From contig LGFX01000005.1 in the NCBI GenBank assembly GCA_001508335.1, positions 18,225 through 82,224 of the forward strand: 64,000 nt of DNA. Direction: 5' to 3'. The DNA is from a candidate division TA06 bacterium 32_111 (GTDB lineage: Bacteria > Hydrothermota > 32-111). This document shows, piece by piece, positions 18,094 through 20,938 of this stretch. How positions within the stretch are numbered: the first letter of the stretch is position 1; every line of letters begins with the position of its first letter. The notes beneath the pieces are model-generated. The model worked only from the letters and a program-made list of their open reading frames with translations, did no database searches and was not told where the DNA came from. Position numbers and translations under genes: made by a program.

Positions 18094-19440
18094 TTAAATG
18101 ACACCTTGATCTATCATAGCATCAGCCACTTTCTTGAATCCAGCTATATTCGCTCCGTTTACATAGTTTCCTGGTGTTCCATACTCTTTTGCAGCATCAA
18201 AGCATGATTTATGAATGTTTATCATTATGTTGTGGAGTTTCTGATCAACCTCCTCTCTTGTCCAACTCAACCTTATTGAGTTCTGTGACATTTCAAGACC
18301 GCTTGTCGCTACACCACCAGCGTTTGCTGCTTTCCCAGGTGCATAGAGAACTTTGTTTGCAAGAAATACCTCTACAGCTTCAGGTGTTGATGGCATATTC
18401 GCACCTTCTGAAACACATACACAACCATTTTTAACCAGTTCCTTCGCATCACTCTCATCAAGTTCATTCTGGGTTGCACATGGTAAGGCTATGTCGAACT
18501 TTCCCAGTTTCCAGGGCTTTTTCCCATCATGGTATTCAACATCTTTAAACTTCTCTGCCATCTCTTTTATTCTTCCTCTCTTTACATTTTTAAGTTCAAT
18601 CAAAAATTCCCATTTTTCCTGATTAAGACCGTTCTTTAAGTAAACTGTACCGTTAGAATCTGAAAGTGTCATAACTTTTCCACCAAGTTGCATTATCTTT
18701 TGTGAAGCGTACTGTGCAACATTACCTGAACCTGATATTGCAACTGCCATTCCTTCTATTCCTTTTTTGGCAGTTTTCAACATCTCTTCCGCAAAATAAA
18801 CACATCCATATCCTGTTGCTTCAGGTCGTATCAAAGAACCACCCCAGTTTAGCCCTTTCCCAGTAAGAACTCCTGTAAATTCATTTTTTAACTTTCTGTA
18901 CTGTCCAAACATAAAACCTATCTCTCTTGCACCAACTCCAATGTCTCCTGCTGGAACATCCGTATCAGGGCCGATGTGTCTAAAAAGTTCGTTCATAAAT
19001 GCCTGACAGAATTTCATTACTTCATTATCAGATTTTCCTTTTGGATCAAAATCACTTCCACCTTTTCCACCACCCATTGGAAGACCTGTTAGGGAGTTTT
19101 TAAAAATCTGTTCAAAACCCAAGAATTTTAAAACACCTAAATTTACCGTTGGATGAAATCTCAGACCACCCTTGTATGGACCAATAGCAGAGTTGAACTC
19201 AACTCTATAACCAACATTAACCTGAACCTTTCCGTTGTCATCAAGCCATGGAACTCTGAAAATTATAACTCTCTCAGGTTCCACAATCCTTTCAAGGATA
19301 GCATGTTTTTGGTATTTTGGTTCTTTTTCTAGCAAAAGTTCAAGTGATTCTAAAACCTCTTTTGCTGCCTGAAGAAACTCTTTTTCCCATGGATACTTTT
19401 TGGAAAGTTTATCGTAAACCTCCATCGCATAACCGCTCAT
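18094..19440 (-). CDS. gdhA: Glutamate dehydrogenase, NADP-type signature
   Basis: [38 protein letters not shown] and LSDSNG (E. coli-like NADP motif). ATG 19440 follows GGAGGT. Confidence 0.95.
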
Positions 19441-19471
19441 TATACCTCCTTTTTTATAAACGCTCATTATA

Positions 19472-19500
19472 ATTATAAAAATATAATTTTATAAAGTCAA
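19472..19500 (-). promoter_or_regulatory. sigma70-type promoter of the left gdhA
   Basis: TTGACT-17-TATAAT. Confidence 0.65.
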
Positions 19501-19530
19501 TAATTTAATTTAAATGGTTTGATATAGCTC

Positions 19531-19558
19531 TTGACTTTTAAACTTAAAGGTGTAAAAT
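19531..19558 (+). promoter_or_regulatory. sigma70-type promoter of the right gdhA
   Basis: TTGACT-16-TAAAAT; SD AGGAGG before ATG 19598. Confidence 0.6.
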
Positions 19559-19597
19559 ACGGCTGTTTTATAATAAAAATACATTCAGGAGGATTAA

Positions 19598-20938
19598 ATG
19601 AATAGTTATGTATCGCAAGTAATAGAAGAAGTAAAGCAGAGATACTTCTGGGAAAAAGAGTTCATACAGGCTGTTACAGAAGTTTTAGAATCTTTATCAC
19701 TCGTAATTGATAAAGAGCCAAAATACAAAAAATACAGAATACTTGAAAGAATAGTTGAACCTGAAAGAATAATATTCTTCAGAGTTCCATGGACAGATGA
19801 CAAGGGTGAGATACACATCAACAGAGGTTACAGAATAGAGTTCAACTCAGCACTTGGTCCATACAAGGGTGGAATAAGATTCCATTCTTCAGTAACATTG
19901 TCTATCTTAAAGTTCTTGGCTTTTGAGCAGATTTTTAAAAACTCTCTAACAGGTCTTCCAATGGGTGGTGGAAAAGGTGGAAGTGACTTTGATCTTAAAG
20001 GAAAATCTGAAGGTGAAGTTATGAGATTCTGCCAGTCATTCATGACAGAACTTTTCAGACACATCGGCCCTGATACGGATGTGCCAGCAGGAGACATTGG
20101 AGTTGGTGCAAGAGAGATAGGCTACATGTTTGGACAGTACAAAAGATTGAAAAACGAGTTCACAGGAGTTCTTACTGGGAAAGGGCTAAACTGGGGTGGT
20201 TCTTTGATACGACCTGAAGCAACTGGTTTTGGTGTTGTTTATTTTGCGGAAGAGATGTTGAAAACAAGAAAAGAATCACTTGAAGGGAAAAGGGTCGCTA
20301 TAAGTGGTTTTGGTAATGTCGCTTGGGGTGCTACGATTAAAGCTAACGAACTCGGTGCGAAGGTTGTTACATTATCAGGCCCTGATGGATACATCTACGA
20401 TGAGGATGGAGTAAAGGGTGAAAAGATAGATTATATGCTTGAAATGAGAGCAAGTGGAAGAGATTGTGTTAAAGATTACGCTGATAAGTTCAAAGTCAAA
20501 TTCGTTGCTAACAGGAGACCATGGGAAGTTAAAGTTGATGTCGCTTTACCATGTGCAACACAGAATGAGATAGATGAAAACGATGCAAAAAATTTGATAA
20601 AGAATGGATGCAAGTATGTAGTTGAGGGATCAAACATGTCATCAACACCGCAAGCTATTGAGGCATTCCTTAGCAACAATATACTTTATGCTCCAGGAAA
20701 AGCATCAAATGCAGGCGGGGTTGCTACAAGTGGACTTGAGATGTCTCAAAATTCTATGAGATTACAATGGCCAAGAGAAGAAGTTGACAAGAGGTTGAGA
20801 GAAATAATGGTTAAAATACATCAGTCATGTGTTGATGCTGCAAAAGATTATGGAACACCAGGCAACTATGTCAACGGTGCGAATATAGCAGGATTCAAGA
20901 AAGTTGCCGATGCTATGATAGATCAGGGACTTGTTTAA
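19598..20938 (+). CDS. gdhA: Glutamate dehydrogenase, NAD-type signature
   Basis: Same catalytic motifs, but GFGNVAWG and LSGPDG as in the NAD-specific Clostridium symbiosum GDH. Confidence 0.95.
   Translation: MNSYVSQVIEEVKQRYFWEKEFIQAVTEVLESLSLVIDKEPKYKKYRILERIVEPERIIFFRVPWTDDKGEIHINRGYRIEFNSALGPYKGGIRFHSSVTLSILKFLAFEQIFKNSLTGLPMGGGKGGSDFDLKGKSEGEVMRFCQSFMTELFRHIGPDTDVPAGDIGVGAREIGYMFGQYKRLKNEFTGVLTGKGLNWGGSLIRPEATGFGVVYFAEEMLKTRKESLEGKRVAISGFGNVAWGATIKANELGAKVVTLSGPDGYIYDEDGVKGEKIDYMLEMRASGRDCVKDYADKFKVKFVANRRPWEVKVDVALPCATQNEIDENDAKNLIKNGCKYVVEGSNMSSTPQAIEAFLSNNILYAPGKASNAGGVATSGLEMSQNSMRLQWPREEVDKRLREIMVKIHQSCVDAAKDYGTPGNYVNGANIAGFKKVADAMIDQGLV

What the first reader, a model, noticed from the sequence alone, without database searches (positions are those of the whole stretch)
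18815..20223. Inverted gdhA paralogues share perfectly identical DNA ending at the domain I/II hinge: gene conversion or an invertible cofactor/promoter switch
Seen: 18815-18876 is the exact reverse complement of 20162-20223 (62 bp, about 20 codons with no synonymous change, ending in RPEAT). 18917-18981 versus 20057-20121 differ at 1 of 65 nt, and a 41-bp identical tract covers [13 protein letters not shown]. In contrast, the equally protein-conserved C-terminus ([23 protein letters not shown]) has many synonymous differences. Known: the RPEATG region lies at the junction between the substrate domain and the nucleotide-binding domain. Inference: recent recombination between the copies. A crossover in these tracts would invert the segment of up to about 1.4 kb holding both promoters and N-domains and give in-frame chimeras, swapping which promoter and 5' UTR drives the NAD- versus NADP-binding domain.
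Basis: partly seen in the sequence, partly recalled or inferred. Interest (0 to 1): 0.8.

Follow-up and report, generated by a model that had tools for sequence, protein, structure and literature searches.

The report
Gene conversion between head-to-head gdhA paralogues
Two neighbouring glutamate dehydrogenase genes, one of the NADP type and one of the NAD type, repeatedly copy the middle third of their sequence onto each other, while nothing shows that the DNA between them flips as a switch.

Summary
18815-18876 is the exact reverse complement of 20162-20223, and 41-, 38-, 30- and 26-nt identical tracts lie nearby. They sit in two complete, divergently transcribed gdhA genes: A (18094-19440, minus strand, NADP-type residues) and B (19598-20938, plus strand, NAD-type residues).

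Recurrent short-tract gene conversion is strongly supported.
- In codons ~106-212 the paralogues of one genome are closer at synonymous sites (dS 0.34) than orthologues of sister species (0.57-2.0).
- This segment's tree pairs A with B genome by genome in 4 genomes.
- The N- and C-terminal parts separate A from B.
- Holding B as one clade in the middle segment is rejected (AU p=0.0005).
- The longest run of agreeing polymorphic sites was reached by 0 of 10,000 permutations.

The invertible-switch idea has no support. All 5 assemblies with the head-to-head pair keep A-type N-terminus with A-type C-terminus. No strand-changing joint appeared in 4 public runs. None of the 10 flanking ORFs scanned has a recombinase-family hit. 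Only contigs were available, not raw reads, so rare flipping is not excluded.

This is a clean new example of a known process, domain-limited concerted evolution. Interest is moderate to low.

The parts
18094..19440 (-). gdhA paralogue A, 448 aa, NADP-type by sequence
   Evidence: Full ELFV_dehydrog_N (1.7e-52) and ELFV_dehydrog (1.5e-92) hits. Best solved relatives are named NADP-specific GDH (5ijz 6.1e-180, 3sbo 2.1e-177). It has Ser/Ala/Ser/Asn where B has F/A/P/D. The start at 19440 has a conserved GGAGG upstream in 4 genomes.
19598..20938 (+). gdhA paralogue B, 446 aa, NAD-type by sequence
   Evidence: Pfam hits 4e-53 and 9.6e-93. Best solved relatives are 1bgv/1k89/1aup, the last of these named NAD-specific GDH (1.9e-181). 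It aligns with F238, A242, P262 and D263 of 1bgv conserved.
19441..19597 (.). Shared divergent promoter region, 157 bp
   Evidence: Sigma-70-like sites found: minus strand TTGACT (19500) with TATAAT (to 19472), and plus strand TTGACT (19531) with TAAAAT (to 19558). Both -35 boxes are conserved in G000, G001, G002 and G006. These are consensus matches only.
18805..19125 (-). Converted segment in A (codon columns 106-212)
   Evidence: dS between A and B is 0.34 here, against 2.45 in the N part and saturated in the C part. In this segment's tree A_G000 pairs with B_G000 (92/89).
19913..20233 (+). Converted segment in B (codons 106-212), running from the Gly-rich GGGKGG stretch to the inter-domain hinge
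   Evidence: Same calls as for A. Pfam's N domain ends at B residue 182 and its C domain begins at residue 200. RPEAT is B residues 205-209.
18815..18876 (.). 62-nt exact inverted repeat, arm in A
   Evidence: The nearest relative's A (L122) differs here at 3 sites where B of this genome is identical to A.
20162..20223 (.). 62-nt exact inverted repeat, arm in B
19052..19092 (.). 41-nt exact inverted repeat, arm in A (partner 19946-19986)
   Evidence: In the public runs this piece has about double depth (33.3 against 16-18 in X2; 52.7 against 23-25 in X4), as expected for a true two-copy tract.
18917..18981 (.). 38-nt and 26-nt identical runs separated by one mismatch at 18955 (partner 20057-20121)
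18773..18802 (.). 30-nt identical run just beyond the hinge ([10 protein letters not shown]; partner 20236-20265)

Best explanation
Two old, functionally diverged hexameric-type glutamate dehydrogenase genes sit head to head, about 160 bp apart. A is NADP-type and B is NAD-type. Homologous recombination between them repeatedly copies short patches (tens to about 200 nt) from one onto the other without crossing over, which is intrachromosomal gene conversion. The result is concerted evolution of codons ~106-212(221).

This segment is the most conserved part of the substrate/catalytic domain and runs up to and slightly past the inter-domain hinge. The first 105 codons and the nucleotide-binding domain keep evolving apart.

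Shown here: the mosaic pattern, its statistical support, and its independent recurrence in several species.

Inferred:
- The machinery is RecA-type repair that uses the paralogue as template.
- The tract limits are set by the fall in nucleotide identity, which brings a mismatch barrier.
- Selection also keeps the cofactor-determining residues of domain II apart.
For: (1) Synonymous divergence is strongly non-uniform. Between A and B of this genome, dS (NG86) is 2.45 in codons 1-105, 0.34 in 106-212, not computable (saturated) in 213-420, and 0.71 in 421-463.

(2) In 106-212 the paralogues of one genome are closer than orthologues. A0/B0 dS is 0.34. A0 against the A of L122, G001 and G002 gives 0.57, 0.93 and 2.01. 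Cross-genome A-B pairs give 0.74-2.6 or saturated.

(3) Trees of 27 sequences. The 106-212 segment pairs A with B of the same genome in G000 (92/89), G001 (92/93), G002 (99/95*) and G006 (98/95*). The rest of the gene gives a B clade (99/100*).

(4) AU tests. B as one clade is rejected in the middle segment (delta lnL 127, p=0.0005; the six family-f1 B genes p=0.0066). It is not rejected in the N part (p=0.31). A0+B0 as a clade is rejected in the C part (p=8e-6).

(5) Permutation test. G000 has a run of 30 agreeing polymorphic sites (0 of 10,000 permutations reach it). G002 has 114 (0 of 10,000). G013 has 23 (p=1e-4).

(6) Tract limits differ between species. The longest identical runs are 62 nt in G000, 41 in G001, 213 in G002, 29 in G006 and 37 in G013. 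In G002 the A gene carries B-type residues FGV beyond the hinge. In G006 both copies share LVRPEATG and GGREIG, whereas G000 has LIRPEATG and GAREIG.

(7) Recency. In the 62-nt tract the A of the closest relative (L122, about 90% nt identity) differs from A_G000 at 3 sites where B_G000 equals A_G000.

(8) The sequence of both copies' unique parts is reproduced with 0 differences in contigs of three other public runs, X2, X4 and X9. Their contigs break exactly at the edges of the shared tracts, as true repeats do.
Against: The limits of the middle partition (columns 106-212) were chosen after seeing the sliding window, so the AU p-values are somewhat optimistic.

In G006 the permutation test alone is not significant (p=0.15). 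In G001 the longest run lies in the C-terminal end, not the middle (p=0.005).

A count of bases private to one genome's A and B was uninformative (0-2 sites per segment).

No donor or recipient could be assigned in this genome. No raw reads were seen, so exact tract lengths, above all the 213 nt of G002, could be inflated by assembler collapse.

The recombination machinery and the role of selection at the tract limits are inferred, not tested.
Confidence: 0.9

Rival explanations
1. Invertible switch. Crossing over in the inverted identical tracts flips the ~0.85-1.35 kb segment that holds both promoters and both N-terminal parts. This exchanges which promoter and N-terminus drives the NAD-type and the NADP-type domain II, and the cell uses it as a reversible regulatory state.
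For: The geometry is right. The tracts are inverted, in frame and at homologous codons, so a crossover would give in-frame chimeras. Conversion shows that the two copies do pair and recombine. PDB entry 2yfh, a three-part GDH chimera by its molecule name, matches both A and B strongly. That hinge-swapped GDH chimeras are active is recalled, not read here.
Against: 5 of 5 assemblies with the head-to-head pair (G000, G001, G002, G006, L122) link A-type N-terminus to A-type C-terminus and B to B. The N-part tree gives the four A genes 100/99* and the six f1 B genes 99/97*.

No strand-changing joint was listed in 4 of 4 laid runs. Contigs of X8 (18486-19065) and X9 (18061-18954) cross the 62-nt tract in the reference arrangement.

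None of the 10 flanking ORFs scanned has a recombinase or invertase family hit. Tandem pairs in the sister family show conversion too (G013 p=1e-4; middle tree), so the homogenisation needs no inversion.

Both 5' leaders are short: about 25-40 nt from the -10 box to the ATG.
Confidence: 0.04
2. No recombination. The identical DNA reflects strong selection on codon choice or on an RNA or DNA element inside the most conserved protein segment.
For: The segment is the most conserved at protein level (dN 0.05). Short identical runs of 20-26 nt also occur between A and B of different genomes at codons 117-128.
Against: Such selection would act equally across genomes. Yet cross-genome A-B pairs have dS 0.74-2.6 or saturated in the segment, against 0.21-0.52 within G000, G001 and G002. 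Their longest identical runs are at most 26 nt, against 62 and 213. The synonymous states shared by A and B differ from species to species. No Rfam family reached its gathering score in 15000-21600.
Confidence: 0.03
3. Assembly artefact. The assembler merged near-identical stretches of the two paralogues, creating false identity.
For: Public-run contigs (k=31) keep only one of the two 40-nt variants between the 62-nt and 38-nt tracts: the A-type in X2 and X9, the B-type in X4 and X8. This shows that assemblers do merge this locus. G002 is a 70-contig assembly with a 213-nt identical run.
Against: The signal appears in five assemblies of different organisms, with different tract limits. In G006 A and B pair in the tree (98/95*) although their longest identical run is only 29 nt, which leaves no long exact anchors for a merger. 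Differences between the tracts are kept in this window. Contigs of X2, X4 and X9 break exactly at 18815 and 20223. The 41-nt tract has about double depth.
Confidence: 0.03

Closest known systems
tufA/tufB gene conversion in Salmonella enterica (PMC5485169; passages read)
   Same: Two paralogues in inverse orientation on one chromosome exchange contiguous conversion tracts. Mismatch repair shortens the tracts, and large regions of sequence difference block them.
   Different: The tuf copies are nearly identical over all 1185 nt (12 differences), lie 762 kb apart and are functionally redundant. Here the copies are about 70% identical in protein and about 160 bp apart head to head. They have different cofactor-type residues, and only about a quarter of the gene (107 of about 447 codons) is homogenised. 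The mechanism is inferred here, not measured.
Region-limited concerted evolution of diverged paralogues, e.g. mammalian TLR1/TLR6 (PMC2077338; search listing and start of abstract only)
   Same: By its title, gene conversion limits the divergence of these paralogues. That the exchange is confined to part of the genes is recalled, not read.
   Different: That case concerns eukaryotic tandem genes. Here a bacterial head-to-head enzyme pair shows independent events in at least four species.
Engineered hinge-swapped GDH chimera, PDB 2yfh (molecule name seen; its biochemistry is recalled)
   Same: It combines domain I of one GDH type with domain II of the other, across the same hinge where the natural tracts end.
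   Different: It is man-made and swaps whole domains. The natural events are short patches that leave the N-terminal 105 codons and domain II of each gene in place.
Invertible promoter switches (fimS or hin type; recalled)
   Same: Inverted repeats flank a promoter-bearing segment.
   Different: Those have short specific repeats, a dedicated recombinase and both orientations present in a culture. None of the three was found here.

Membership tests
Hexameric-type Glu/Leu/Phe/Val dehydrogenase (GDH) family | Both Pfam domains, ELFV_dehydrog_N and ELFV_dehydrog, over their full length | tested here: met
   A: 1.7e-52 (profile 1-129/129) and 1.5e-92 (1-241/241). B: 4e-53 and 9.6e-93.
Hexameric-type Glu/Leu/Phe/Val dehydrogenase (GDH) family | Close full-length similarity to solved, named glutamate dehydrogenases | tested here: met
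   A matches 5gud/5ijz/3sbo at about 1e-177 to 1e-180. B matches 1bgv at 1.9e-181. Both matches cover almost the whole length.
NAD-specific GDH (clostridial type), for gene B | Phe, Pro and Asp at the positions of F238, P262 and D263 of the C. symbiosum enzyme | tested here: met
   The alignment to 1bgv shows GFGNVAWGA and LSGPDGYIYD conserved. The role of these residues comes from PMC3157743 passages. Enzyme activity was not tested.
NADP-specific GDH, for gene A | Ser at the positions equivalent to F238 and P262 | tested here: met
   A has GSGNVAQYA and LSDSNG aligned to B's GFGNVAWGA and LSGPDG. [quoted passage not shown] The top named PDB hits are NADP-specific. Enzyme activity was not tested.
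Gene conversion / concerted evolution of paralogues | Within a segment, paralogues of one genome are more alike than orthologues between genomes | tested here: met
   dS in codons 106-212 is 0.34 for A0/B0, against 0.57-2.01 for orthologues. The codon-identity table agrees.
Gene conversion / concerted evolution of paralogues | Phylogenetic conflict between segments of the same gene | tested here: met
   Trees. AU p=0.0005 in the middle segment and p=8e-6 in the C part. The partition limits were chosen.
Gene conversion / concerted evolution of paralogues | Identical fragments longer than permutation of polymorphic sites allows | tested here: met
   0 of 10,000 permutations for G000 and for G002. 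p=1e-4 for G013. Not significant for G006 (0.15) or G011 (0.21).
Gene conversion / concerted evolution of paralogues | Dependence on homologous recombination functions (RecA, modulation by MutS) | not testable with these tools
   Needs genetics. Inferred by analogy with tuf.
Invertible DNA switch (phase variation) | Inverted repeats flank a promoter-bearing segment | tested here: met
   The 62-, 41-, 38-, 30- and 26-nt inverted tracts flank both promoters.
Invertible DNA switch (phase variation) | Both orientations present in a population or among close relatives | tested here: not met
   5 of 5 assemblies have the same linkage. 0 of 4 runs show a strand-changing joint. Contigs only, so rare variants would be missed.
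Invertible DNA switch (phase variation) | Dedicated site-specific recombinase encoded nearby | tested here: not met
   The 10 flanking ORFs (9823-15115 and 21546-26777), the two GDH-like ORFs at 15581-18022 and hsp20 have no recombinase family hit. Three of the flanking ORFs and the first GDH-like ORF (15581-16810) have no Pfam hit at all.

The most novel reading that the evidence does not exclude
The head-to-head pair is a recombination-driven cassette. Besides conversion, occasional crossovers in the 41-62-nt inverted tracts flip the promoter/N-terminal segment. This creates subpopulations in which the NAD-type and NADP-type nucleotide-binding domains are driven by each other's promoter, a bet-hedging switch between glutamate catabolism and ammonium assimilation. 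Nothing seen here excludes rare flipping, because only contigs could be examined, not reads.
Probability: 0.04. Interest if true: 0.8.

Novelty: new member of a known kind. Interest (0 to 1): 0.3.

Why it matters
This is a clear natural case of gene conversion homogenising only the shared catalytic segment of two enzymes, while the cofactor-binding domain stays diverged. It recurs independently in at least four species.

It has three practical consequences:
- Trees of GDH built on whole genes will mislead in this group.
- Short-read assemblers merge parts of this locus, so annotation and variant calls there need care.
- The varying tract ends, up to 12 codons past the hinge in G002, are a set of natural chimeras that show which residues near the hinge tolerate exchange between NAD- and NADP-type enzymes.

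It does not open a new kind of mechanism.

Tried and rejected
Reads for both orientations. The look-up of sequencing runs offered only Logan contigs, no raw reads. Read laying on X2, X4, X8 and X9 showed contigs breaking at the shared tracts, so the orientation of the middle piece 19063-19975 cannot be read from them.

A seemingly polymorphic conversion patch in X8. It has 10 changes at 18877-18916, all to the B-copy base. I reject it as evidence. In every one of the 4 runs only one of the two 40-nt variants is present in the contigs (the depth of X2 in bin 20089-20219 is exactly what records 6 and 7 alone give). This fits bubble removal by the assembler. That assemblers do this is recalled.

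None has a second GDH within 2.5 kb (0 of 80). It neither named the organism nor gave close relatives.

The metagenome scan with a 24-nt pattern gave one locus, L122, which holds only the first 93 codons of B. An attempt to reach the rest of that record failed.

C-terminal end (codons 421-463). The tree is unresolved and the AU test gives p=0.37. I cannot tell whether it was converted in the genus ancestor or is merely constrained.

The count of genome-private shared bases was uninformative.

Rfam found nothing at gathering score in 15000-21600.

Literature. A search for 'glutamate dehydrogenase' + 'gene conversion' + 'paralog' found 19 papers. The 15 listed include none on bacterial GDH pairs. 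The GDH chimera paper itself is not in the library. Supplements were not consulted.

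Full report
WHAT IS THERE. The region holds two complete glutamate dehydrogenase genes transcribed away from each other. Gene A runs 18094-19440 on the minus strand (448 aa). The ORF finder's start at 19467 reads through the ribosome-binding site, and the ATG at 19440 follows a GGAGG conserved in four genomes. 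Gene B runs 19598-20938 on the plus strand (446 aa). Both carry full-length ELFV_dehydrog_N and ELFV_dehydrog domains and are 70% identical in protein.

The 157-bp spacer holds two back-to-back sigma-70-like promoters whose -35 boxes are conserved in G000, G001, G002 and G006. These are consensus matches only. The whole genome has just these two GDH genes of this type.

COFACTOR TYPES. B is closest to the clostridial enzyme set 1bgv/1k89/1aup (1.9e-181; 1aup is named NAD-specific). A is closest to enzymes named NADP-specific (5ijz 6.1e-180, 3sbo 2.1e-177). In the alignment to 1bgv, B keeps F238, A242, P262 and D263. A has Ser, Ala, Ser and Asn at the aligned places. In the passages of PMC3157743 that I read, most NADPH-dependent GDHs have Ser at the F238 and P262 positions, and changing these residues shifts the clostridial enzyme towards NADPH. 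So the NAD/NADP labelling is supported by sequence. No activity is known.

THE OBSERVATION. It is exact. 18815-18876 is the reverse complement of 20162-20223 (62/62), and 18917-18981 against 20057-20121 has one mismatch. Further identical runs of 41, 38, 30 and 26 nt lie in a 674-nt inverted repeat that is 81% complementary overall.

IS IT MORE THAN CONSERVATION? Among residues identical in A and B, the share encoded by the same codon is 80-90% in codons 106-210. It is 21-46% in codons 226-255 and 316-405 (40-60% in the windows between them) and 57-75% in the first 105 codons. dS between A and B is 2.45 (codons 1-105), 0.34 (106-212), saturated (213-420) and 0.71 (421-463).

The decisive control is the comparison with other genomes. 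All 16 genomes held for this class were searched.
- Four have the head-to-head pair: G000, G001, G002 and G006.
- Four have a tandem B-then-A pair: G011 and G013, plus G012 and G014 where the second copy is cut by a contig end.
- Two have B only: G009 and G010.
- Five have A only.
- One, 77% complete, has none.

The duplication is therefore old. Yet in codons 106-212 A and B of one genome are closer (dS 0.34, 0.52 and 0.21 in G000, G001 and G002) than A to its orthologues (0.57 to L122, 0.93 to G001, 2.01 to G002) or A to the B of another genome (0.74-2.6 or saturated).

TREES. A tree of this segment pairs A with B genome by genome: G000 92/89, G001 92/93, G002 99/95*, G006 98/95*. It also joins B of G013 to the A genes of G013 and G012 (95/93*). 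The remainder of the gene gives a clean B clade (99/100*) and A genes that follow the species groups. Holding B together is rejected in the middle segment (delta lnL 127, AU p=0.0005) but not in the N part (p=0.31). Joining A0 with B0 is rejected in the C part (p=8e-6). I chose the segment limits, which flatters these p-values.

PERMUTATION TEST. This test does not depend on those limits. It gives 0 of 10,000 for G000 (30 sites, codons 189-208) and 0 of 10,000 for G002 (114 sites, codons 150-221). It gives p=1e-4 for G013 and p=0.005 for G001, where the run lies at codons 428-435. It is not significant for G006 or G011. Six of seven cross-genome controls are not significant.

INDEPENDENT, RECENT EVENTS. 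The nucleotide alignment shows species-specific synonymous states shared by both copies. Tract limits also differ. The longest identical run is 62 nt in G000, 41 in G001, 213 in G002 (codons 150-221), 29 in G006 and 37 in G013, against at most 26 between A and B of different genomes.

In G002 the A gene carries the B-type residues FGV just past the hinge, which points to B-to-A transfer there. In G006 both copies read LVRPEATG and GGREIG, where G000 reads LIRPEATG and GAREIG.

A metagenome contig about 90% identical to the window (L122) has the same gene arrangement. Its A differs from A_G000 at 3 sites inside the 62-nt tract where B_G000 is identical to A_G000. The homogenisation in this genome is therefore younger than that split.

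MECHANISM. The pattern is the textbook signature of ectopic gene conversion. One copy is repaired with the other as template, giving contiguous non-reciprocal patches. The nearest worked example is tufA/tufB of Salmonella. Those copies are also inversely oriented, their tracts are contiguous and shortened by mismatch repair, and large sequence differences stop the process (PMC5485169, passages).

I infer two reasons why the homogenised zone is confined to codons ~106-221. First, this is where protein constraint keeps the copies similar enough to pair (dN 0.05 against 0.25-0.33 elsewhere), and each conversion renews that similarity. Second, patches reaching the cofactor-determining residues would be selected against. 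The tract end at RPEAT is not a fixed boundary. It lies at codon 209 in this genome, with a further 30-nt identical run at codons 213-223, and at codon 221 in G002.

THE SWITCH IDEA. A crossover in these tracts would indeed invert the promoter/N-terminal segment and give in-frame chimeras. I found no sign that this happens or is used.
- The N-terminal 105 codons, which are saturated at synonymous sites between A and B, stay linked to the matching C-terminal type in all 5 assemblies with the head-to-head pair.
- No strand-changing joint was listed in the four laid runs. Contigs of X8 and X9 cross the 62-nt tract in the reference arrangement.
- None of the 10 flanking ORFs scanned has a recombinase-family hit.
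- Tandem pairs, which cannot invert, are converted too.

The limit of this test is that only k=31 contigs were available. They break at the shared tracts, so the orientation of the central piece cannot be read from them and rare variants are lost.

ARTEFACT CHECK. The unique parts of both copies are reproduced with 0 differences in X2, X4 and X9. Contigs break exactly at 18815 and 20223, and the 41-nt tract has about double depth. The public contigs nevertheless keep only one of the two 40-nt variants at 18877-18916 / 20122-20161 in each run. This explains the apparent B-type patch in X8 and warns that assemblers can merge parts of this locus. The G006 signal, a supported A+B pairing with no identical run above 29 nt, cannot arise that way.

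WHAT IS KNOWN. Gene conversion between bacterial paralogues is well known. I found no report for bacterial GDH pairs in the one search made (19 papers, 15 listed, none relevant).

VERDICT. Conversion is supported at about 0.9, and a functional switch is unlikely at about 0.04. This is a new member of a known kind, of moderate to low interest.

Noticed in passing
window 15581-16810 and 16814-18022 (+): Two tandem ORFs (409 and 402 aa) lie directly upstream of gene A. The second is a very diverged GDH-fold protein (ELFV_dehydrog_N 1.9e-11, ELFV_dehydrog 7e-6) that reads NGSFSS where GDH has GGGKGG, so the catalytic lysine seems lost (judged by eye). The first has no Pfam hit. Both are kept next to A in L122 (88% aa), G001 (68-69%) and G006 (28-30%), so they evolve fast. 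They may be non-catalytic GDH relatives.
   Followed up: partly
window 15217-15232 (+): The only perfect sigma-54 -24/-12 consensus in the window, TGGCACGATTGTTGCT, lies here (18 matches at up to 2 mismatches, 11.6 expected). It sits between a sigma-54-type response regulator (13760-15115, with histidine kinase 12045-13763) and the first GDH-like ORF, about 350 nt before its start.
   Followed up: no
window 9823-12054 (+): A pair of ORFs with a DHODB-type Fe-S domain and a Fer4_20 + Pyr_redox_2 architecture, like a glutamate synthase small subunit. With the regulators and four GDH-family genes, the neighbourhood looks like a nitrogen/glutamate island.
   Followed up: no
window 18044-18064 and 20961-20990: Palindromic terminator-like hairpins with T runs on both strands follow gene A and gene B. 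The second has a 13-bp stem.
   Followed up: no
window 18877-18916 / 20122-20161 in runs X2, X4, X8, X9: Public k=31 contigs keep only one of the two paralogue variants of this 40-nt stretch in each run: A-type in X2 and X9, B-type in X4 and X8. The X8 contig therefore looks like a converted gene. This is a trap for variant calling at this locus.
   Followed up: yes
L011 (G027) against the B clade: In the C-terminal partition, one outgroup GDH from another family of the phylum (O_G027) falls with the eight B genes (9 rows, 100/100*). The NAD-type domain II may be older or more widely spread than the paralogue pair itself.
   Followed up: no
G009 and G010 (L035, L036): Two genomes of the same genus as G006 have only the B gene. 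Five other family genomes have only A. Either copy can be lost.
   Followed up: partly
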